Virus record (IMG/VR): IMGVR_UViG_2579778660_000005
Direction: 5' to 3' (one strand)
DNA: 16,519 nucleotides
Origin: a virus
Taxonomy: Duplodnaviria; Heunggongvirae; Uroviricota; Caudoviricetes
Made by a program: the position numbers and the translations under genes
In this document: piece by piece, positions 1 to 13,009 of the stretch
Layout: each line of letters opens with the position of its first letter
How positions within the stretch are numbered: position 1 is the stretch's first letter
The notes under the pieces: generated by a model
What the model saw: the letters and a program-made list of their open reading frames with translations, nothing else
What the model was told of the DNA's origin: nothing
The model's database searches: none

Positions 1-1284
1 TTACAGACTTCTGGAAGGTTGCGCAGCTCTTACAACACGCGGTTGATCTTCCGCAGCGTCTTCCAGCGCACTTAAATCACGGTCTTTCACCTCTGGCATT
101 TTCAGCGCAGAGATTAAACCAATTACTGAATATGCCATGATCATAATGGCGATCGGATACCAGGATTCCGTCATGGTGCAGAAAATCCCCGCCAGGATAG
201 GACCAAAACCGGAAGCGATAAGACCACCAATTTCTTTAGAAATAGCCATCCGGGTAAAGCGGTTTTTACAGCCGAACATTTCTGCCATGGTAATGTTTTC
301 CAGAGCAAATAATCCCAGCACCGCACAGTTATGAATCACAATCAGTGCAACCATAATGGTGCTCGGGGCATAGCTTTTATCTACAATGATAGAAAGCATT
401 GGCCATGCCAGCACAATCGCGGAGGTATTCATAATAATATACGGGATCCGGCGACCAATTTTATCGGATAACCAACCAAGGAACGGAATGGTCATAAAGC
501 CGAGAATCGAACTAATCATCAATGCATCTGTTGGAATTGCTTTGTTAAACAATAACGTCTGCACTAAATAGCCTGCAAGGAAAGTCTGAATTAACCCGGA
601 GTTACCCGCCTGACCAAAACGCAGCCCTGTTGCCAGCCAGAAGGATTTGCTCTGGAACATGCTACCAGCAGGTGCAGGTTTTGCTGTGGGTTGGTTGCTG
701 TCATTAACCTTCTCAAAGACCGGGCTTTCTTTCAGATTCATACGTAACCAGATAGCAAAGACCATCACGACAACGCTCGCCAGGAACGGTATACGCCATC
801 CCCACGCCAGCAGTTCCTCTTTACTGAGAATGAAGAACATAAAGGCCCAGATTGCCGTTGCGCTCAAGGTTCCGCAGTTAGTTCCCATAGCTACAAATGA
901 GGAGATAATTCCGCGCTTACCTTTTGGTGCATATTCCGCCAGCATCGTACCGGCACCGGAAATTTCCGCACCTGCACCCAACCCCTGAATAATACGCAGC
1001 GTCACCAGCAAGATGGGGGCAAAAACACCAATCTGTGCATAGGTCGGTAACACACCAATTAAGGTGGTACAGATCCCCATCATGGTGATGGTAATAAAGA
1101 GCACTTTTTTACGCCCTATTCTGTCGCCCATTTTGCCGAAAATAAATGCTCCGACAATACGCGCCACATAACCTGCACCGTAGGTTCCCATTGCCAAAAT
1201 TAACGCCATTGCCGTTGATGATTCAGGAAAAAATATTTCATGAAACACTAACGCTGCGCCGAGCGAATATAACTGGAAATCCAT
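1..1284 (-). CDS. ydfJ: MFS-type metabolite:H+ symporter (ProP/KgtP-like); N-terminus appears shortened
   Basis: 427-aa ORF with many hydrophobic helices and the MFS loop motif G-x-x-G-D-R-x-G-R-K-K starting near residue 50; aligns from memory with ProP starting at about ProP residue 25; an in-frame TGA lies two codons upstream of the ATG. Confidence 0.85.
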   Translation of the reverse strand: MDFQLYSLGAALVFHEIFFPESSTAMALILAMGTYGAGYVARIVGAFIFGKMGDRIGRKKVLFITITMMGICTTLIGVLPTYAQIGVFAPILLVTLRIIQGLGAGAEISGAGTMLAEYAPKGKRGIISSFVAMGTNCGTLSATAIWAFMFFILSKEELLAWGWRIPFLASVVVMVFAIWLRMNLKESPVFEKVNDSNQPTAKPAPAGSMFQSKSFWLATGLRFGQAGNSGLIQTFLAGYLVQTLLFNKAIPTDALMISSILGFMTIPFLGWLSDKIGRRIPYIIMNTSAIVLAWPMLSIIVDKSYAPSTIMVALIVIHNCAVLGLFALENITMAEMFGCKNRFTRMAISKEIGGLIASGFGPILAGIFCTMTESWYPIAIMIMAYSVIGLISALKMPEVKDRDLSALEDAAEDQPRVVRAAQPSRSL

Positions 1285-2068
1285 AATTCACAGGTGTTTT
1301 TTCCCATCCTGTGGTTTCCTTGGCGTTTTCTAGGTTTTTTCAGATAGTTGCATTTTTTAAAAAGCATCCTAAGTTCGATCTCAGTGTCTATCTGGGGCCT
1401 ATTTCTGTCCCATATATGCCCCAAAAAGACTCCCCAACAGATAAGTAGTTTTTCATGGATTTACGCGTAAAATCAATAACGGCTGGAAATCATTCAATAC
1501 TCGCACTATCGAAAAATTTACCAGCCAACCGCAGCACGTTCTTGCATAAGGCGTGTCTGCGGTTTTTCAACTATTCAGATAAATCACTCCCATCACATTC
1601 ATTCCTCCGCATCAAAGGCATATAGGCTATATCACCTTGATATTTTTCTTCTTCAGATAAAAACTGTTATCTATGTATACTTTTAAACCCAATCCGTGTA
1701 GAGTCTCTGCATAAGATAGTTTGCAGTTGCCGCTTCAGCTTGCGCCATAAACCGCCTGATTTTTGCTGCCACCTGTTAGCATTCCTGTATACCTGAAACG
1801 ACAATGTTTATCTACGAACTTTAAGAACACCCAAGATAAAAATTGTCAACTATATCATATATAACACATTACTAATTCGAGGCTATATGAACAGCATACT
1901 GATAATCACTTCTCTCCTTATCATATTCAGCATTTTTAGTCATGCCCTAATAAAATTAGGGATTGGCATATCCAATAACCCAGACAAAACCGATGTATAA
2001 GCCAACATATCCTGAATCAGACATACAATATCGCAATGAAAATCAATAATATTTTAAGGAATATCTTC

Positions 2069-2302
2069 ATGAAATCAAAAGACACCCTAAAGTGGTTCCC
2101 TGCGCAGCTTCCTGAAGTAAGAATTATCCTAGGGGATGCTGTAGTGGAAGTAGCAAAACAGGGAAGACCTATCAATACCAGAACATTGCTTGATTACATT
2201 GAAGGAAACATAAAGAAAAAATCATGGCTGGATAACAAAGAATTATTACAAACAGCGATATCAGTTCTTAAAGACAACCAAAATTTAAATGGTAAAATGT
2301 AA
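2069..2302 (+). CDS. ydfK: YdfK/YnaE-family small protein (77 aa)
   Basis: ORF track gives 88 aa from 2036; internal ATG at 2069 is preceded by AAGGA at 2056..2060 and matches the remembered YdfK start MKSKDTLKWF. Confidence 0.7.
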   Translation: MKSKDTLKWFPAQLPEVRIILGDAVVEVAKQGRPINTRTLLDYIEGNIKKKSWLDNKELLQTAISVLKDNQNLNGKM

Positions 2303-2618
2303 TATAATAAACTTACTTTTTTATCATTTTTCCACTTTAACAACATTTTGCTCCACTTTTCCACGACCAAACAACTTGAAATCTGGTTAAAATAACACGC
2401 AACACTATTCTTCTTCCTTGAGTCCGCCCGGAACTCGAAAAACAAACCGAGTTAAAGCCATTTTTCACAAAATCGATTTTGGGTCTCACCAAAATTACGG
2501 GGTTGCATACGCATTCGTTTATTTTCGAACGTGTACATACAAATATGCACAAAAATAATCAAAATTATTTTCTGAGATGCATTATGATATGAACACCAAT
2601 TTCGTATAGAGTCTCACT

Positions 2619-3209
2619 ATGTCTCGAATTTTTGCTTACTGTCGGATATCAACGCTGGATCAGACCACCGAAAATCAACGCCGGGAAATCGAAAGTGCAG
2701 GTTTTAAAATCAAACCTCAGCAAATAATCGAAGAACACATTAGCGGCTCAGCAGCAACCAGTGAGCGTCCTGGTTTTAACCGGTTGCTTGCTCGCCTGAA
2801 ATGTGGTGATCAATTGATTGTGACAAAACTGGATCGCCTTGGTTGTAATGCAATGGATATCAGGAAAACAGTGGAACAACTGACCGAAACAGGTATCAGA
2901 GTGCATTGCTTAGCATTGGGGGGCATTGACCTGACCAGTCCAACAGGAAAAATGATGATGCAAGTAATTTCAGCAGTCGCTGAATTTGAACGAGACCTTT
3001 TACTTGAACGCACTCATTCCGGGATAGTAAGAGCCCGCGGCGCAGGGAAACGTTTTGGTCGACCACCTGTGTTAAATGAAGAACAGAAACAGGTGGTATT
3101 CGAACGAATTAAGTCAGGTGTAAGTATAAGTGCCATTGCCCGGGAATTCAAAACCTCGCGGCAAACCATTTTAAGAGCCAAAGCAAAACTTCAGACACCT
3201 GACATATAA
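2619..3209 (+). CDS. pinQ: Serine recombinase, Gin/Hin/Pin-family DNA invertase
   Basis: 196 aa; N-terminal catalytic motif YCRISTLDQ and C-terminal HTH region typical of Pin/Gin invertases. Confidence 0.93.
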
Positions 3210-3306
3210 AAAATAATCTCGGTGTGAGATGCTTTACGTCTTCCAAGCCCCCTTCCTTGCCGTAAATGGAAAGATACATCTAATTATAGAATTTATATGT
3301 TTTACC

Positions 3307-3882
3307 CTACGGCAGTGCTGGCCATTCAATATCCTGTGCAGTTGACGTATCAACACGGTTCAGCAATACCCGATACTTTTTCCATGCTTCCAGCAACGAG
3401 ATTTCTTCCTCCGTTGCAATTTCCAGATCTGCAGCATCCTGAAGCGGCGCAATATGCTCACTGGCTACCTGCATCAGGTTGTTTTTTGTTTCTTCCGCCT
3501 CCCGGATCCGGAACAGTTTTTCTGCTTCCGTATCCTTCACCCAGGCTGTGCCGTTCCACTTCTGAAACTCCCCTTCCGGCGATAACCAGGTAACATTTTC
3601 CGGTAACGGACCGAGTTCAGAAATAAATAACGCGTCCCCTGATGCCACGTCATAAACTGTTTTACCCCGATGGTCTTCAACAAGATGCCACGATGCCTCA
3701 TCACTGTTGAAAACAGCCACGAAGCCTGCCGGAATATCTGGCGGTGCAATATCGGTACTGTTTGCTGGCAGACCTGTATGAGGCGGAATATATGCGTCAC
3801 CTTCACCAATAAATTCATTAGTTCCGGCCAGCAGATTATAAATTTTTATGGTCTGTGGTTGTTCACTCATTCTGAATGCCAT
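3307..3882 (-). CDS. tfaQ: Tail fibre assembly protein (Tfa)
   Basis: 191 aa recalled as lambdoid Tfa; start ATG overlaps the stop of the upstream tail-fibre ORF (TAATG arrangement). Confidence 0.85.
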
Positions 3883-8088: not shown

Positions 8089-8603
8089 CAGGCTAATGCG
8101 CTTTCCTGGTCACGACGAATAACCTGACCATAACAGTTATTTGAACGAATGCGGCAATCGCGCCCCCTGTCCTTAATCCACCAGCGAATCGCCTCGCAGG
8201 CACCTTTACGATCACCTGCATTCAGCCGTTTATAAAACGTCGACGGAAAACACTTACCGGGGCCAATGTTATAGGGACAAAATGACGCGATACCCGCTTT
8301 CTGGGGTTCGGTCAGCGGCACTTTAATATTGCGCTCCACCCATGCCAGCGCCTTATCGCGTTCAATGGCATTAACCTGAGCACATTTTTCCTTCGTCAGT
8401 TTCATGCCCGGAATAACAGATTTACCATCCACCATCGTGGCACCACGACAGATGGTCCATATGCCGGAACCATCGCGGTATGCCGTAGTGTGGTTACCCT
8501 CTTTTTCATCCAGAAACTGGTCAAGTATCTGTGGAGCTGATGCGCCTGCTCCAATCAGCGCCAGAGCTGCAGCTGACAGGCCGTATTTGATTTTTGCGTT
8601 CAT
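8070..8603 (-). CDS. rrrQ: SAR endolysin (phage-21 R-type lysozyme)
   Basis: 177 aa; weakly hydrophobic Gly/Ala-rich N-terminal signal-anchor-release helix [16 protein letters not shown], then E...D...T lysozyme motif region. Confidence 0.9.
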
Positions 8604-8658
8604 GGATATTTATCAGGATGCTACCAATGAAAGATACTGGAAAGCCAACCGCAAAAAG

Positions 8659-8973
8659 CTAACAACCCGTAATCGAGTTATCAGAACTGTTAATTTTTAT
8701 GGTATACCGCGCCTCTGAACAGGGGCGCGTTTCTGGCAACAGCTCGTCCCCTTCACATAACCCGGCAGCAACATCCAGGAAGACCTGTCTGATGCTCCTT
8801 CTGGCTGCTGCCTCATAAAACTCCAGCGCGGCACCTTCAACACGGACCAGCGAGATGTCCAGGTCAAAAATTTCACCGTCAAAGCGTTCTTTGTCCCGTA
8901 ACGCTAAAGTTACCGTAACTTTATTCTCAAAATTGCGGATCCCTTTCACAATCAGTTCATATTTTTGAGTCAT
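8659..8973 (-). CDS. ydfR: YdfR-like protein (DUF1327) inside the lysis cassette
   Basis: 104-aa ORF between holin and endolysin genes, the same position as ydfR in Qin-type prophages. Confidence 0.65.
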   Translation of the reverse strand: MTQKYELIVKGIRNFENKVTVTLALRDKERFDGEIFDLDISLVRVEGAALEFYEAAARRSIRQVFLDVAAGLCEGDELLPETRPCSEARYTIKINSSDNSITGC

Positions 8974-8977
8974 TGAA

Positions 8978-9193
8978 TTACTCTCCCCGTGCAGCCTTAC
9001 GCTTGTCTTCTTTAATCTTGAAATAAAGGTTTGTCAGGTACGTCAGCAGGCCAAATACCAGGCTACCCAGCACACCTATTGCTGCCCACTGTGAGGGCGT
9101 GACTTTATCGAGCAGCTGTAAAAACCAGTAGCCAGCACTGCCTGCGGAGGTGCCGTAGGCAATGCCTGTTGAAATTTTGTCCATGGATTTCAT
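8978..9193 (-). CDS. essQ: Pinholin, S21-like class II holin with dual-start motif (71 aa)
   Basis: Sequence [26 protein letters not shown]...[13 protein letters not shown] matches remembered S21; two in-frame ATGs at 9193 and 9184 (minus) preceded by GGAGGTGA; the 90-aa track ORF is an unsupported upstream extension. Confidence 0.88.
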
Positions 9194-9295
9194 AGCCTCA
9201 CCTCCGCACGGAACGGATGGCATAGTTATTATGTGTAGGCTTCCAGACACATCAATCAGAGCCTTAATTGATATATATGCTGGAGACGATGCAAT

Positions 9296-9319
9296 ATAAA
9301 AAGCTCGCCGTAGCGAGCT
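9296..9319 (-). terminator. Rho-independent terminator (minus strand) between lipoprotein gene and holin
   Basis: Minus-strand AGCTCGC-TACG-GCGAGCT stem-loop followed by TTTTT. Confidence 0.55.
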
Positions 9320-9444
9320 AATAAAATGTATTTCTCTGATATTATGTTTATTTGTATTAGCTCAGACTTGACATCACAGGTTTCGTATATAGAACATCAT
9401 CAAATCTGTCAGTTTGCTATGAATGAGATATAGTAATTGAAGAG

Positions 9445-9840
9445 CTAACCTCGCATGTCAAAGCCAGATTTCTGAAAATCTCTGTAGACTTCCGGATTGT
9501 TGAAGGCCGGAAATTTGGCTTTATGAGCTGCGGACTTTATCGCTTCGCAATAGGCTTTATCACCGTTACTGGTAGATATTTTTAACGCCGTGCCATCCTG
9601 AGAGAATTCCATATGCAACCTGCATTTTTTCCCTTTCCAGTTATGCGGCTCATCAAGTTTGGCATTAATTGCAGCTCTGATTCCCCGCGCTTGCGCCCCC
9701 CATTCATCCTGATCATCCCAGCGTCCTGAACTGCAACTACCTGTAGCAGTAGTTTTGTGGCAATCTGAAGGGTGTAAAGGTGTGCATCCCGCAACAAAAC
9801 CGACCCAAAAAGTCAACATAACGATTTTCTTTAATCCCAC
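9445..9840 (-). CDS. Lipoprotein with diverged TolA domain III-like C-terminal domain (paralog 1)
   Basis: 131 aa; GTG start preceded by GGAG; signal peptide with lipobox VAGC; C-terminal part aligns with paralog 2 and with remembered TolA domain III. Confidence 0.75.
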   Translation of the reverse strand: MGLKKIVMLTFWVGFVAGCTPLHPSDCHKTTATGSCSSGRWDDQDEWGAQARGIRAAINAKLDEPHNWKGKKCRLHMEFSQDGTALKISTSNGDKAYCEAIKSAAHKAKFPAFNNPEVYRDFQKSGFDMRG

Positions 9841-9990
9841 TTCTTGCTCCTCAATCCATTAAAATCTCAGCAATAGTAGTTGTTACGTCCGCCACTGGCT
9901 CAGAGCTGACTATCCGCTAAATTTAGCTCAGTGCCGTAGTTGTGTCAGAACAAACCTAAGCCGAAACCGTTTATTACAAAACAATAAATA

Positions 9991-10419
9991 TCAGGGTTTA
10001 AAATCCAGCACCCCATTTTGAAATACTTTATATACTTCCGGCGAAGGGGGGGCAGGTATATCAGCATTCTTTATCGCATTCATCGCTTCACGACATAAAT
10101 CGAGGTCTCCACTTTCTCTTTTAACCTCCAGTAGAAGGCCATTCGGGGCCATATGCATTCTCAGTGTACACTCTTTTCCTGAATACTTACTCGCATCCCC
10201 GAACTGTTTTTCGATGGCGCTCTTGATTTGATGGGCATACAGACGGATATCCTCACTAACATCAGAAGTACGTTCAGATGAACTCACATACTGTGTCTCT
10301 ATTGCTTTATCGGAGTAATATGATGTACGGTCATGATAATTTGTCGATACAGCATCAGTGCACCCGATAATAATCCCACTAATAATCAACGTAAGAATTG
10401 ATGCGCTACGAAAACCCAT
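9991..10419 (-). CDS. Lipoprotein with TolA domain III-like C-terminal domain (paralog 2)
   Basis: 142 aa; ATG preceded by GAGG; lipobox IIGC; C-terminal 86 aa (YAHQIKSAIEKQF...GKECTLRMHMAPNGLLLEVK...IPAPPSPEVYKVFQNGVLDFKP) about 60 percent identical by eye to the remembered E. coli TolA C-terminus. Confidence 0.8.
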   Translation of the reverse strand: MGFRSASILTLIISGIIIGCTDAVSTNYHDRTSYYSDKAIETQYVSSSERTSDVSEDIRLYAHQIKSAIEKQFGDASKYSGKECTLRMHMAPNGLLLEVKRESGDLDLCREAMNAIKNADIPAPPSPEVYKVFQNGVLDFKP

Positions 10420-10448
10420 TTTTCCTCACATATGTCATATAGTAAAGG

Positions 10449-10454
10449 ATTATA
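10449..10454 (-). promoter_or_regulatory. Candidate -10 element (TATAAT) for the lipoprotein genes
   Basis: Perfect TATAAT on the minus strand about 30 bp upstream of the paralog-2 start; -35 is weak. Confidence 0.3.
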
Positions 10455-10952
10455 TATACCGTTGTTTTGGACGCTCAAACAGCGAATCAGATCAAATAAA
10501 ACGCACATTTGTTAACATTTACACAAAGTCTGCGTGGGATATTCTGAAAGAATATCCATAATGTGGAGAGAATCTATTGAAGTGCATGGTGCCGGGTGCC
10601 TCCCGGTGAATTCAGTACCAGCACCTGAATCCGCGATTATCCCATATACCTACTCGCTGATTGCCCCTCCGCACAGGGGGATTCACCATGCCAGTTTCTT
10701 TTAACAAACTCCCCGCAAACCAGAGAACAGTCAACCGCCTGAATTGTGAAGTATTTAAAAATTTCTCCCGCTAACTGATACCCGGCTAACAGTCTGGCGT
10801 TTTCTTTTTCAGCAACGGGAAAGCAACAACCACCACACCCGCCACCAGCACACCGTCAGCCAGCACTGACATTATCCGGCTGCTGCAATGCCATTCACAA
10901 AAACAGTAAGCAATCACTTTTTACCGTAACAGGTGATAATCCAGATATGTAT

Positions 10953-11306
10953 CTACCCCAGATGAGTAATCCGAAGTTCATCCATACCACAGGTCCTGGC
11001 TATTCTGTTGTACTCCTGAACAAGAGCAAATAATTCTGAATTAGCAACCATGAACTCATCGCAAACCCTCTGTATAGCATCACTATTCAGAATAATAACG
11101 TCTCTTCCCGAAAGACGATCAGGAGCACAGAACAAAACTGTCAAACGGCTGAAGGCCTTTGCTCGTGCTGCATTGACTATATCAATACGCTGCCTAAGGA
11201 TGAAACACCCCGACGCCTCATCAATATTCACTCTACCCACACCATATGAATGATAAATATTTAATGCTGAAAAAACCATTAGACCGTATAACAAACACTC
11301 AATCAA
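10953..11306 (-). CDS. Hypothetical protein (117 aa, TTG start; possible cargo gene)
   Basis: Long ORF in an AT-rich stretch, same orientation as the late operon, directly downstream of the tRNAs; no recognised motif; start codon uncertain. Confidence 0.35.
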   Translation of the reverse strand: MIECLLYGLMVFSALNIYHSYGVGRVNIDEASGCFILRQRIDIVNAARAKAFSRLTVLFCAPDRLSGRDVIILNSDAIQRVCDEFMVANSELFALVQEYNRIARTCGMDELRITHLG

Positions 11307-11416
11307 TACTTAACAGAACTTTTATTTTTGACAAACATATAATATTTTCAACAATATCCTGAGCCAGGTATATTCCAGTATAAGGCTCTGCCGGAAGGAA
11401 TCTGGAAGAATGAATA

Positions 11417-11493
11417 TGGCGCGCTGTACTGGATTCGAACCAGTGACCGATTGCTTAGAAGGCAATTGCTCTGTCCGGCTGAGCTAACAACGC
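11417..11493 (-). tRNA. argO: tRNA-Arg (anticodon UCU)
   Basis: 77-nt cloverleaf folded by hand: acceptor GCGUUGU/ACAGCGC, D-stem GCUC/GAGC, anticodon stem AUUGC/GCAAU with loop CUUCUAA, T-arm ACUGG-UUCGAAU-CCAGU, 3' CCA. Confidence 0.9.
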
Positions 11494-11597
11494 TGAATAC
11501 CGATAATGGACCGCCATCGGGGACCCGCCCCCCCCCGCACCAACAACCCTGTTATCGTGTCGTCTGCTCTTCCTGATAAGCTCATGGCGGTTTGTGA

Positions 11598-11673
11598 TGG
11601 TGGCCCTTGCTGGATTTGAACCAGCGACCTGGCGATTATGAGTCGCTCGCTCTCACCACTGAGCTAAAGGACC
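11598..11673 (-). tRNA. ileZ: tRNA with CAU anticodon (Ile2-like or Met)
   Basis: 76-nt cloverleaf: acceptor GGUCCUU/AAGGGCC, D-stem GCUC/GAGC, anticodon loop CUCAUAA, T-arm GCUGG-UUCAAAU-CCAGC, 3' CCA; one mismatch at the top of the anticodon stem. Confidence 0.8.
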
Positions 11674-11712
11674 GGGAGCAGAATAATAACGGTCCGTAAT
11701 TAATTCCGCAAT

Positions 11713-11736
11713 AAAAAACCCGCTCGGTGGCGGGTT
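11713..11736 (-). terminator. Rho-independent terminator downstream of Q (tR'-like)
   Basis: Minus-strand AACCCGC-CACCGA-GCGGGTT stem-loop followed by a U-tract. Confidence 0.6.
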
Positions 11737-11783
11737 GTAGAAACTCTTCTAACGTCAGGCATAAAACGCCCATCTTTATGACG

Positions 11784-11811
11784 AATTTACCACAGATTCC
11801 GGAAAAATCAA
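11784..11811 (-). promoter_or_regulatory. Late promoter pR'-like (-35 TTGATT, 16-nt spacer, -10 TAAATT)
   Basis: Lies immediately after the Q stop codon; remembered lambda pR' is TTGACT/TAAATT in the same position relative to Q. Confidence 0.5.
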
Positions 11812-11816
11812 CCTTG

Positions 11817-12638
11817 TTACCTAGTTACCTTTTTTAACTGCCGCTCAGCCCATGCTTCTTCAATATCAAACCGGGTCACCAGCGCATCATAGAATTTCTT
11901 AACTGTTTTTTCCCATGACGCGCGTGTTATCTGGTTTGTCACCTCGCATATAGCATTAAATGCCTCCGTTGATGGTAGTCTTTCATAGCCCCGACCACCA
12001 CAACGCTGGCAGTCTCTGATAACAGGCATACCACGTTTTACCGACTCTTCACGGTGAATGGCGACACCACGCCCACGGCAATCCTTACAGGCGGTGGAAA
12101 CCTCACCCTTTCCGCCACACTCCGGACAGGCAACTTTTACCACCTCCCTGACTTTTTTCCATTCTTCCCAGTAAGACGGATACACACCTTTCGTACACTT
12201 TGCCCATACCGGCGGCTTACCATCCGGATACTGGACCTTGTTTGTAAAAACTACGCTTTCAATAAATTTTTCCCCATAGCAACAAGGGCACTGCTTTTTA
12301 CTCGCTGCGCTGCGGGCATAATCCTCAAAAGCGTACGAAGCCATAATGCGCATCACTAACGGTTTTATTTCTGCCGGAAGTTTTCTCAACGCCGCCACAC
12401 GATCGCACCGACTGAGTGCATAATCTGCCAGTAATTCTGTTGCCCGCGCCCTGTCATTCATACTGATGCCCATTTTCCCCAGGAACGCAGAAAATCCCAT
12501 CTCAGCCCGATTCTGTGTCATGCCCTGCGCGGCCATCACATCAGTGATACTCAGCGCATCTTTTGACGTTGAGGCCGATGCATCGGTCAGGCCAGGGGAT
12601 TTTGGGGAGTAGTATTTCGGTAAATCTTCCAGTTTCAT
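11817..12638 (-). CDS. quuQ: Late-gene antitermination protein Q (lambda Q family)
   Basis: 273 aa; shares with remembered lambda Q the blocks SPKSP...TDVMAA.GM, CxxC-GxG zinc motifs (CKDCRGRG, CQRCGGRGY) and TVK..YDALV. Confidence 0.9.
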   Translation of the reverse strand: MKLEDLPKYYSPKSPGLTDASASTSKDALSITDVMAAQGMTQNRAEMGFSAFLGKMGISMNDRARATELLADYALSRCDRVAALRKLPAEIKPLVMRIMASYAFEDYARSAASKKQCPCCYGEKFIESVVFTNKVQYPDGKPPVWAKCTKGVYPSYWEEWKKVREVVKVACPECGGKGEVSTACKDCRGRGVAIHREESVKRGMPVIRDCQRCGGRGYERLPSTEAFNAICEVTNQITRASWEKTVKKFYDALVTRFDIEEAWAERQLKKVTR

Positions 12639-13009
12639 TTTTTGACCTGCTCTTCATGCATTATGGGGTAAATCTTCACCCCCAGACGTCCACCAGATAC
12701 TGGCTGACCACGAACGATATTGATTTCATCAAACTGCTCATCGTCCATTAACACTCCCGCATGCGTCAGCGCATCCAGCGGTGCTTTCAGGATATTGTCC
12801 AGGTCGCGACGACGCTTATCCGGTGGCTCTGCAATCACCTTTATCGCCAGCCTTCCGGACAGGCTTAATTTCAGCCGCTGCTGGCGAACAATAAGCGCCA
12901 CAGCCCGGCGATAACGCTTTCCCTCCTCCGAGATAAAATATGTGCTGCCACGGCGTCGCCAGTAAGTGTTCACCGTCGGCGGGTAAGGTAAAACCAAATC
13001 TATGAGCAT
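12635..13009 (-). CDS. rusA: Holliday junction resolvase RusA
   Basis: 124 aa with RusA-like blocks LPYPPTVNTYWRR and DKRRRDLDN..K...DALT; ATGA overlap with the Q start. Confidence 0.85.
   Translation of the reverse strand: MLIDLVLPYPPTVNTYWRRRGSTYFISEEGKRYRRAVALIVRQQRLKLSLSGRLAIKVIAEPPDKRRRDLDNILKAPLDALTHAGVLMDDEQFDEINIVRGQPVSGGRLGVKIYPIMHEEQVKK

What the first reader, a model, noticed from the sequence alone, without database searches (positions are those of the whole stretch)
9296..10454. The lipoprotein pair looks like an autonomous transcription unit inside the late operon
A TATAAT hexamer sits about 30 bp upstream of the paralog-2 start and a clean intrinsic terminator (AGCTCGC-TACG-GCGAGCT plus U-tract) lies between paralog 1 and the holin. 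That layout is typical of lysogenic-conversion cargo (as with bor and lom in lambda) expressed in the lysogen independently of Q.
Basis: inference. Interest (0 to 1): 0.5.

Follow-up and report, generated by a model that had tools for sequence, protein, structure and literature searches.

The report
Prophage cargo cassette: two TolA-mimic lipoproteins
A 1.36-kb mobile cargo cassette sits between the late-gene activator and the lysis genes of an E. coli prophage; it encodes two outer-membrane lipoproteins that copy the tip domain of the host protein TolA and ends in a genuine terminator, but whether it has its own promoter is plausible and unproven.

Summary
The sequence features are real. On the minus (late) strand, TATAAT lies at 10454..10449, 29 nt before the paralog-2 ATG. 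TTGAGC lies 18 nt upstream of it. This is one of only two sites scoring 10/12 or better in the 16.5-kb window. The hairpin AGCTCGC-TACG-GCGAGCT plus U-tract (9319..9296) is one of only two strict terminators in the window (expected 0.007).

Comparison with sister prophages shows that 10582..9221 (1,362 bp, GC 0.41 against 0.49-0.52) is a portable cassette. It occurs in about 14% of complete E. coli genomes, behind two unrelated Q antiterminators. Its non-coding ends occur only together with the genes. That is the anatomy of a phage "moron" at the same hot spot that holds stx.

The promoter is weaker evidence than the terminator:
- Its chance probability in this AT-rich leader is 0.066.
- A sister cassette carries TGTAAT instead of TATAAT.
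- The cassette starts inside an STnc100 sRNA element that has lost its own terminator, so transcription may enter from upstream.
- No expression data exist.

Both products are lipoproteins with a TolA domain III. Paralog 2 is 59% identical to E. coli TolA 334-421. They are probably decoys for TolA ligands. Verdict: an ordinary kind of element carrying interesting, uncharacterised cargo.

The parts
9221..10582 (-). Portable cargo cassette (1,362 bp) holding the promoter-like site, paralog 2, paralog 1 and the terminator
   Evidence: Sister prophages with IraM cargo (L005, L007) are 98.5% identical from 10583 upward and unrelated below it. Other essD holins share only about 27 nt upstream of the ATG, up to 9220. 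GC is 0.408 against 0.49-0.52 in the flanks. The two non-coding ends occur in 788 and 794 E. coli genomes, the pair itself in 774. A 1,355-bp prophage indel labelled 'TolA protein, hypothetical protein' is listed in PMC6854850.
10449..10478 (-). Sigma-70 promoter-like site TTGAGC-18 nt-TATAAT; predicted start about 10442, leader about 22 nt, Shine-Dalgarno GAGG at 10427..10424
   Evidence: 10/12 match, the best in the region and one of two in the window. Local chance probability is 0.066. It is identical in all 146 near-identical loci that match it. It reads TGTAAT in the P0155-type sister cassette.
9991..10419 (-). Paralog 2: 142-aa lipoprotein (lipobox IIGC, Cys20, +2 Thr) with a disordered tether and a TolA domain III
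   Evidence: Pfam TolA_C 82.6 bits. PDB TolAIII E = 5e-28. 52/88 residues identical to E. coli TolA 334-421. 14 of 20 residues mutated in the g3p/ColN/TolB contact study are identical, including D418, F419 and K420 (PMC4339652).
9841..9990 (-). 150-nt spacer between the two genes, without a terminator; holds a weak promoter-like site CTGACA-17-TAAATT (9948..9920)
   Evidence: No terminator-like site was found. The fold is no better than shuffles, z = -0.44. The promoter-like site is a 9/12 match.
9445..9840 (-). Paralog 1: 131-aa lipoprotein (GTG start after GAGGAG, lipobox VAGC, Cys19) with a disordered tether and a TolA domain III fold
   Evidence: Pfam TolA_C 54.6 bits. AlphaFold model residues 42-131 have pLDDT above 90. 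The best PDB match is TolAIII 3QDP, TM 0.92, rmsd 1.1 A. The coding sequence alone is 87% identical in DNA to a gene on about 600 plasmids. Proteins 78-89% identical are stand-alone chromosomal genes in Enterobacter, Citrobacter and Serratia.
9296..9319 (-). Intrinsic terminator: 7-bp stem, UACG tetraloop, U-tract; 125 nt after the paralog-1 stop and about 100 nt before the holin ATG (9193)
   Evidence: It is not inherited with either coding sequence: homology to plasmid and chromosomal relatives ends at the stop codon.
10530..10720 (-). STnc100-family sRNA element (RF02076). Its conserved core ends at 10583 (...CACCATGCA). The canonical GC-rich terminator is replaced by an AU-rich hairpin (10556..10536) with no U-tract
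   Evidence: 114 bits against a gathering score of 47. Alignment with seven other copies shows the missing GCCCCTCTCCGGAGGGGC plus T-run. The hairpin folds at -9.5 kcal/mol.
11717..11736 (-). Terminator just downstream of Q (tR'-like), marking the start of the late operon
   Evidence: Q carries Pfam Antiterm at 185 bits.
8978..9193 (-). Phage-21-type pinholin (MKSMDK dual start), the first lysis gene downstream of the terminator
   Evidence: Pfam Phage_holin_2_1 121 bits. Annotated as essD in identical genomes.

Best explanation
The region is a moron. It is a 1.36-kb horizontally mobile cargo cassette inserted in the Q-to-holin interval of a lambdoid (mEp460/Qin-like) E. coli prophage, the same hot spot that holds stx in Stx phages.

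The cassette carries two genes for outer-membrane lipoproteins. Each consists of a signal peptide with a lipobox, a disordered tether of 20-35 residues, and a copy of TolA domain III. It ends in a strong intrinsic terminator.

Proposed working, with shown and inferred steps marked:
1. In the lysogen the pair is transcribed at a modest level, as one bicistronic mRNA that stops at 9319..9296. Transcription would start at the sigma-70-like promoter at 10478..10449, possibly supplemented by read-in through the upstream STnc100 element, which has lost its terminator. The terminator would keep this transcription out of the holin gene. Expression in the lysogen and the insulating role are inferred. 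The signals and the cassette borders are shown.
2. After induction, Q-modified RNA polymerase from the late promoter ignores terminators and reads through the cassette into the lysis genes. This rests on established knowledge of lambdoid Q proteins.
3. The lipoproteins act in the periplasm as tethered TolA-domain-III decoys. They would bind ligands that normally dock on TolA by beta-strand addition: Tol-dependent colicins, the g3p N1 domain of filamentous phages, and perhaps the TolB N-terminus. This would protect the lysogen. The function is inferred from homology and from where relatives occur.
For: Borders and mobility:
- Sister prophages diverge exactly at 10582/10583 and at about 9220.
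- The cassette is identical behind two unrelated Q proteins: Antiterm PF03589 in the window, DUF1133/Phage_antitermQ in L006. The promoter-like site and terminator are the same in both.
- The non-coding ends occur only together with the genes.
- GC is 0.41 against 0.49-0.52 in the flanks.

Signals:
- The promoter-like site is a 10/12 match with a perfect -10 hexamer, correctly placed, and one of two such sites in 33 kb of strand.
- The terminator is far beyond chance.
- No terminator lies between the two genes.
- Paralog 1 lost its ancestral upstream region: only about 30 nt are shared with relatives. This fits co-transcription with paralog 2.

Cargo:
- Both proteins match Pfam TolA_C.
- Paralog 2 is 59% identical to E. 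coli TolA domain III, with the beta-3 strand LDFKP intact.
- The paralog-1 model superposes on TolAIII at 1.1 A.
- Both have lipoboxes.
- TolAIII is the docking site for g3p, colicins A and N, and TolB (PMC4339652; PMC7391070).

Context:
- Paralog-1 relatives sit 67 nt after the relaxase gene on IncI-complex conjugative plasmids and also on pO157. These are replicons that encode pili; by my own recall, filamentous phages use such pili together with TolA.
- All paralog-2-type variants found are cargo in the Q-to-S interval of other prophages.
Against: - There are no transcript data. The literature searches found no study of these genes.
- The promoter match has a local chance probability of 0.066.
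- The P0155-type sister cassette has TGTAAT at the -10 hexamer and no site scoring 9/12 or better.
- The upstream STnc100 lacks its terminator in every cassette-bearing locus examined. The true 5' end may therefore lie upstream.
- A terminator just before the holin also exists in a sister prophage with other cargo.
- The SNPs among near-identical copies are too few to show selection on either signal.
- The decoy function is untested. A TolAIII copy that binds TolB could instead weaken the envelope.
Confidence: 0.55

Rival explanations
1. The pair are ordinary late genes with no working promoter of their own. TATAAT is a chance match in an AT-rich leader. The genes are made only from the late promoter under Q. 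They act during lysis: tethered TolAIII copies titrate TolB and disable Tol-Pal, loosening the outer membrane just before the holin, endolysin and spanin act. The terminator is a generic insulator in front of the holin gene.
For: The genes lie directly upstream of the holin on the late strand. The local chance of the promoter match is 0.066. The -10 hexamer is TGTAAT in the sister cassette. A sister prophage with IraM cargo also has a terminator 39 nt before its holin. Paralog 2 keeps the TolB/g3p-binding strand. Point mutations that block the TolA-TolB interaction destabilise the outer membrane (PMC4339652).
Against: The cassette is dispensable: sister prophages with the same lysis genes lack it. 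Paralog-1 relatives are stand-alone chromosomal and plasmid genes with no lysis context. A strong terminator between a lysis accessory gene and the holin would be odd if they formed one functional module.
Confidence: 0.2
2. The transcription unit is real but begins further upstream. Transcription that makes the STnc100 sRNA (and perhaps the DUF3927 gene) is no longer stopped, because the cassette replaced the sRNA's terminator. It therefore runs through both lipoprotein genes to the 9319 terminator. On this reading the lipoprotein mRNA is a long 3' extension of STnc100, and the TATAAT site is secondary or inactive.
For: The STnc100 core is conserved up to 10583, and the canonical hairpin plus U-run is missing in the window, L006 and L185. 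The replacement hairpin has no U-tract. STnc100 copies are transcribed in uninduced EHEC, and one was confirmed by Northern blot (PMC5331693). RpoD binding at STnc100 copies is reported in Salmonella LT2 (PMC10794520). The next strict terminator downstream is the one at 9319.
Against: I could not find a convincing sigma-70 promoter upstream of STnc100 in the alignment of eight copies. Signal in uninduced cultures could come from a spontaneously induced minority of cells. About 300 nt of untranslated RNA before paralog 2 would invite Rho termination (inference).
Confidence: 0.2
3. The cassette holds two separate monocistronic units. Paralog 1 has its own promoter in the 150-nt spacer (CTGACA-17-TAAATT, 9948..9920), and only paralog 1 uses the terminator.
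For: A 9/12 promoter-like site lies in the spacer. Paralog-2-type genes occur alone in other prophages. Paralog-1-type genes occur alone on plasmids and chromosomes. The cassette is thus a fusion of two modules.
Against: A 9/12 match occurs in about a third of shuffled leaders of this size. No terminator lies after paralog 2. Paralog 1 kept only about 30 nt of its ancestral upstream sequence.
Confidence: 0.05

Closest known systems
stx operons of Stx-converting lambdoid phages
   Same: Both are cargo at the same place: after Q, the late terminator and a tRNA-Ile/tRNA-Arg pair, and before the holin. STnc100 elements sit alongside: one lies 75 nt downstream of stx2 (PMC12370729). stx is co-transcribed with the late genes on induction (PMC8065619 abstract). 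That the stx operons also carry their own promoter is my own knowledge.
   Different: The cargo here is two lipoproteins, not a toxin. STnc100 lies upstream of the cargo and has lost its terminator. No regulation or expression data exist for this cassette.
Classical morons: lambda bor and lom, HK97 gp15
   Same: All are small accessory units added to a late region, often encoding envelope proteins that are expressed from the prophage and benefit the host. Morons are defined as independent transcription units spread by horizontal transfer (PMC3594210).
   Different: bor lies after the lysis genes on the other strand, and lom lies among the tail genes (my own knowledge). For those genes, expression in the lysogen has been demonstrated; here it is only inferred.
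TolA domain III (E. coli TolA 334-421; PDB 1S62, 1TOL, 3QDP, 2X9A)
   Same: Same fold and clear homology. Paralog 2 keeps the beta-3 strand and most of the alpha-2 contact residues.
   Different: There is no transmembrane anchor and no long helical domain II. Instead there is a lipoprotein signal and a short tether, so the proteins cannot couple to TolQR. They are not TolA orthologues, although PGAP names paralog 2 'tolA'.
Phage lipoproteins that exclude superinfection (Cor of phi80/N15, Llp of T5)
   Same: These are small lipoproteins made by a phage that block entry of other agents at the envelope (my own knowledge).
   Different: They inactivate the outer-membrane receptor FhuA. Here the proposed action is mimicry of a periplasmic co-receptor. 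There is no sequence relation.
STnc100 / PasD prophage sRNA family (RF02076)
   Same: The element at 10720..10530 matches the family over its full length. It sits in the Q-to-S region, as other copies do (bioRxiv 10.64898/2026.05.13.724894).
   Different: The 3' terminator hairpin and U-run that define complete copies are absent.

Membership tests
Moron (phage accessory transcription unit) | Present in some genomes and absent at the same position from otherwise closely related phage genomes | tested here: met
   L005 and L007 are 98.5% identical from 10583 to 12000 but carry IraM or other cargo instead. essD holins without the pair also exist.
Moron (phage accessory transcription unit) | Own terminator at the 3' end, inside the insert | tested here: met
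   The terminator 9319..9296 lies inside the borders. Expectation under the strict rule is 0.007 per window.
Moron (phage accessory transcription unit) | Own promoter at the 5' end, inside the insert | tested here: inconclusive
   A 10/12 sigma-70 match lies at 10478..10449. Its local chance probability is 0.066. The sister cassette has TGTAAT.
Moron (phage accessory transcription unit) | Base composition differs from the surrounding phage genes | tested here: met
   GC is 0.408 for the cassette, 0.494 for the lysis genes and 0.52 for the Q region.
Moron (phage accessory transcription unit) | Transcribed from the repressed prophage | not testable with these tools
   No transcript data were found.
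TolA C-terminal domain (Pfam PF06519) | Sequence match above the curated threshold | tested here: met
   82.6 and 54.6 bits against a cut-off of 25.
TolA C-terminal domain (Pfam PF06519) | TolAIII fold | tested here: met
   The paralog-1 model matches 3QDP with TM 0.92 and rmsd 1.1 A. Paralog 2 is 59% identical to solved TolAIII.
TolA proper (cell envelope integrity protein, NF007065 / TIGR02794) | Full-length architecture: N-terminal membrane anchor, long helical domain II, then domain III | tested here: not met
   The proteins are 142 and 131 aa lipoproteins. Only profile positions about 293-386 of 387 match. They score 107.8 and 53.7 bits against the NF007065 cut-off of 213. Paralog 2 does pass the TIGR02794 cut-off (75.6 against 59.45), which may explain the 'tolA' label.
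Bacterial lipoprotein | Signal peptide ending in a lipobox [LVI][ASTVI][GAS]C | tested here: met
   The signal peptides are MGFRSASILTLIISGIIIGC and MGLKKIVMLTFWVGFVAGC. The +2 residue is Thr in both. The Cys is invariant in 26 relatives. Lipidation itself was not tested.
Intrinsic (Rho-independent) terminator | G+C-rich stem, short loop, U-tract immediately 3' of the stem | tested here: met
   7 bp with 5 G-C pairs, a UACG loop, then UUUUUAUAUU; -13 kcal/mol.
STnc100 sRNA (RF02076) | Covariance-model score above the gathering threshold | tested here: met
   114 bits against 47, covering model positions 1-206.
STnc100 sRNA (RF02076) | 3' GC-rich hairpin followed by a U-run, as in complete copies | tested here: not met
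   It is replaced by GGAUAUUCU-UUC-AGAAUAUCC without a U-run.

The most novel reading that the evidence does not exclude
Tethered copies of TolA domain III form an unrecognised class of envelope decoy. They are carried by prophages (about 14% of complete E. coli genomes), by IncI-complex conjugative plasmids, by pO157, and by the chromosomes of several enterobacterial genera. They would soak up the TolA-binding parts of filamentous-phage g3p and of Tol-dependent colicins before these reach the real TolA. In addition, STnc100 elements may serve as recombination joints and terminator modules that shuffle such cargo within the Q-to-holin interval.
Probability: 0.3. Interest if true: 0.7.

Novelty: new member of a known kind. 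Interest (0 to 1): 0.42.

Why it matters
As a transcription unit this is a textbook moron layout at a known hot spot, so the architecture alone adds little. Two things could matter.

The first is the cargo. It is a close copy of the host domain that colicins and filamentous phages must touch to enter the cell. The copy is re-targeted to the outer membrane. It is common, is misannotated as 'tolA', and appears in none of the papers found by my searches. If it protects lysogens and plasmid hosts, it would be a simple new form of exclusion by molecular mimicry.

The second is the junction. The cassette is spliced into an STnc100 element at a 34-nt core that all copies share. This suggests how cargo is exchanged in this interval, including around stx.

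Tried and rejected
- **Conservation of the promoter and terminator across relatives.** The 160 viral-contig loci and about 790 genomes are 99-100% identical. The few singleton SNPs say nothing about selection. More distant paralog-2 genes (RM9387 type, P0176 type) and all paralog-1 relatives share only the coding sequence, so their flanks cannot be aligned.
- **Literature.** Searches by protein accession, 'TolA-like', TolA with prophage, exclusion, moron, essD or pO157 found no study of these genes. The tolA mentions in PMC2948877 and PMC12287860 refer to other things.
- **Anti-phage defence models.** PADLOC gave no hit.
- **Rare-codon link to the adjacent tRNA-Ile(CAT) and tRNA-Arg(TCT).** AGA/AGG/ATA usage in the pair (3.5-3.8 per 100 codons) is no higher than in neighbouring genes.
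- **Terminator after paralog 2.** None was found, and the spacer folds no better than shuffles.
- **A conserved sigma-70 promoter upstream of STnc100.** None was convincing in the eight-copy alignment.
- **Weak Rfam hits.** Trp_leader at the terminator after Q (26.8 bits against 41) and STnc350 are below threshold and were treated as chance.
- **Plus-strand ORFs in the region.** 10358..10561, 9162..9299 and PGAP's 'partial hypothetical' over STnc100 have no support.
Full report
**Setting.** The window is part of a lambdoid E. coli prophage whose late genes run on the minus strand. The 9200..10600 stretch is 100% identical to many E. coli chromosomes and to Escherichia phage mEp460_ev081. Read in the direction of late transcription, the order is:
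- a RusA-type resolvase gene;
- Q (12638..11817, Pfam Antiterm, 185 bits);
- a terminator just after Q (11736..11717);
- tRNA with anticodon CAT (11673..11598; ARAGORN calls it Met, PGAP calls it Ile) and tRNA-Arg(TCT) (11493..11417);
- an unannotated ORF (11306..10953, phrog_2873);
- a 43-aa DUF3927 gene (10917..10786);
- the two lipoprotein genes;
- a phage-21-type pinholin, a DUF1327 gene, a lysozyme, and Rz/Rz1.

A late-promoter-like TTGATT-16-TAAATT at 11811..11784 is my own reading. It matches only 8/12 and falls below the scan threshold.

**Check of the observation.**
- TATAAT is at 10454..10449, 29 nt before the ATG at 10419. TTGAGC lies 18 nt upstream of it. GAGG lies 4 nt before the ATG.
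- It is the best sigma-70 match in 8500..12700 and one of only two matches scoring 10/12 or better in the whole window on either strand.
- The 163-nt leader has GC 0.34. 6.6% of its dinucleotide shuffles contain an equally good site. The promoter is therefore well placed but not statistically compelling on its own.
- The terminator is a different matter. It has a 7-bp stem with 5 G-C pairs, a UACG tetraloop and UUUUUAUAUU, folding at -13 kcal/mol with z = -3.25.
- Under a strict definition only this hairpin and the one after Q pass in 16.5 kb, against an expectation of 0.007. It works only on the late strand.

**What the thing is: a bounded, mobile cassette.**
- A search with 8900..11850 against 5,426 complete E. 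coli genomes produced sharp breakpoints. Direct alignments fixed them.
- Prophages that carry IraM or other cargo (L005, L007) are 98.5% identical to the window from 10583 to 12000 and unrelated below that.
- Holin genes without the pair (L181) share only the last 27 nt or so before the holin ATG, up to 9220.
- The insert is therefore 10582..9221, 1,362 bp. A published genome comparison lists a 1,355-bp prophage-specific segment 'TolA protein, hypothetical protein' (PMC6854850).
- GC is 0.408 inside, 0.494 in the lysis genes and 0.52 in the Q region.
- The upstream non-coding part occurs in 788 genomes, the downstream part in 794, and the gene pair in 774. The ends never travel without the genes.
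- Among 80 viral-contig loci the cassette appears in two main backbones. One is the window's. The other (L006) has a different Q (DUF1133/Phage_antitermQ), its own late promoter-like site and terminator, and an essD-rrrD lysis cassette. The cassette's promoter-like site and terminator are letter-for-letter the same there.
- This meets most of the definition of a moron (PMC3594210). The place is the known cargo hot spot of lambdoid phages.
- All paralog-2-type variants I found also sit between Q and the holin in other prophages. These are the 91%- and 66%-identical proteins and the RM9387 type, which lies directly after the tRNA pair where stx lies in Stx phages.

**The cassette is itself a mosaic.**
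- The paralog-2 module, from the border to about 30 nt past its stop, is shared with a paralog-2-only cassette (L185, L187).
- The paralog-1 coding sequence plus about 30 nt of leader is 87% identical in DNA to a single gene on about 600 plasmids.
- Its protein is 78-89% identical to stand-alone chromosomal genes in Enterobacter, Citrobacter, Serratia and others.
- In every case homology stops at the stop codon. The 220-nt tail with the terminator belongs to this cassette only.
- Paralog 1 has thus lost its ancestral upstream region, and no terminator separates the two genes. This favours one bicistronic mRNA. A 9/12 promoter-like site in the spacer cannot be excluded.

**Evidence that complicates the 'own promoter' reading.**
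- The paralog-2-only sister cassette shares the window's upstream region at about 96% identity, but its -10 hexamer reads TGTAAT. It has lost the adenine at the second position, and the scan finds no site scoring 9/12 or better there. All 146 near-identical loci that match the pattern keep TATAAT.
- Rfam places a full-length STnc100 sRNA element (RF02076, 114 bits against a threshold of 47) at 10720..10530 on the late strand, straddling the upstream border.
- Alignment with seven other copies shows that the conserved core ends at ...CACCGGGAGGCACCCGGCACCATGCA (10583). Every complete copy then has GCCCCTCTCCGGAGGGGC and a T-run. The window, L006 and L185 instead continue with cassette sequence and an AU-rich hairpin that has no U-run.
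- The cassette was therefore joined to the phage inside an STnc100 element and removed its terminator.
- STnc100 copies are transcribed in uninduced EHEC, and one was confirmed by Northern blot (PMC5331693). RpoD binding at such copies is reported in Salmonella (PMC10794520). Transcription may thus enter the cassette from upstream, with 9319 as the first strong stop.
- The sister prophage with IraM cargo also has a terminator 39 nt before its holin. A terminator in front of the holin gene may be a general design.

**The products.**
- Both have a signal peptide ending in a lipobox, with Thr at +2. By the usual +2 sorting rule this points to the outer membrane (my own knowledge; not tested).
- The Cys is invariant in 26 relatives.
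- Paralog 2 residues 55-142 match E. coli TolA 334-421 with 52/88 identities.
- Of 20 residues mutated in the study of g3p, colicin N and TolB binding, 14 are identical. These include D418, F419 and K420 of strand beta-3, where ligands add a strand (PMC4339652).
- Paralog 1 is more distant: 34% identity, 5 of 13 of those residues. Its model (pLDDT above 90 for residues 42-131, residues 1-41 disordered) superposes on TolAIII with TM 0.92 and rmsd 1.1 A.
- Neither protein has TolA's membrane anchor or domain II. They fail the NF007065 cut-off, so they are not TolA. Paralog 2 passes the TIGR02794 cut-off, which may explain the 'tolA' label in RefSeq.
- TolAIII is the site used by g3p of Ff and If1 phages, by colicins A and N, and by the TolB N-terminus (PMC7391070; PDB 1TOL, 2X9A, 3QDR among the hits).
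- The most economical function is therefore a tethered decoy for those ligands.
- Two points of context fit this. On IncI-complex conjugative plasmids the paralog-1 relative lies 67 nt after the relaxase gene on the same strand, and it is also on pO157. In Serratia it sits next to GmrSD- and HEPN-type genes.
- The function is inference. The alternative is that the proteins titrate TolB and loosen the envelope, either at a cost or as a help to lysis. This cannot be excluded.

**Comparison with what is known, and verdict.**
- The layout is that of a moron at the stx position. I file it as a new member of a known kind.
Its interpretation is partly supported.
- The terminator, the cassette borders, the mobility and the composition are shown.
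- The promoter is plausible but not secured. The unit may start further upstream. Expression in the lysogen remains to be measured.
- My searches found no published work on these proteins. PADLOC does not know them.

Noticed in passing
window 10530..10720 (-); also L005 2911..3100, L006 5540..5726, L168 (five copies, 608..3558), L185 (three copies): STnc100-family sRNA elements recur, sometimes as tandem arrays, in the Q-to-holin interval. The shared core CACCGGGAGGCACCCGGCACCATGCA coincides with the mosaic breakpoint at 10583. A 34-nt piece (10583..10616) also hits alone at 100% in another genome (H76). These elements may act as recombination joints and terminator modules for cargo exchange.
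   Followed up: partly
window 10536..10556: A perfect 9-bp inverted repeat, GGATATTCT-TTC-AGAATATCC (z = -3.9), lies about 60 nt upstream of the -35 hexamer. It stands where the STnc100 terminator should be. It could be an operator or an RNA hairpin; its role is unknown.
   Followed up: partly
window 10786..10917 (-): This 43-aa DUF3927 membrane peptide matches phrog_1470, 'TciB-like inhibition of cell division or resistance to colicin'. It lies just upstream of STnc100 and is shared with sister prophages that lack the cassette.
   Followed up: no
window 10953..11306 (-): This 117-aa ORF matches phrog_2873 (E = 2e-69, unknown function) but is not annotated by PGAP in identical genomes. It contains a weak terminator-like hairpin at 11117..11099.
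   Followed up: no
window 11417..11493 and 11598..11673 (-): tRNA-Arg(TCT) and a CAT-anticodon tRNA lie between the terminator after Q and the cargo. ARAGORN calls the second one Met and PGAP calls it Ile. The arrangement resembles that in Stx phages. Rare-codon use in the cargo is not elevated.
   Followed up: partly
L005 1833..1861 (-): A sister prophage with IraM cargo has its own strong terminator-like hairpin 39 nt upstream of its holin gene. This suggests that insulating the holin from upstream transcription is a recurrent feature.
   Followed up: partly
L002 4004..4435, L182 and L183 5004..5435, L003 4003..4434: Paralog-1 relatives lie on IncI1/B/O and IncK2/Z conjugative plasmids, 67 nt after the relaxase gene and convergent with trbABC. 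One also lies on pO157 between toxB and the hok/psiA region. About 600 plasmid records carry it.
   Followed up: partly
L177 4001..6736: In Serratia the chromosomal paralog-1 relative lies after nrdD/nrdG and directly before GmrSD_N and HEPN-domain genes, a possible defence neighbourhood.
   Followed up: no
window 3341..3539 (-): A full-length match to the Rfam IS009 RNA (RF02111, 220.9 bits) lies elsewhere in the prophage.
   Followed up: no
window 9819 vs 9840: PGAP starts paralog 1 at the ATG at 9819 (124 aa). The GTG at 9840 follows GAGGAG and gives a normal signal peptide with Lys-Lys. Several relatives appear to be annotated with overlong N-termini.
   Followed up: partly
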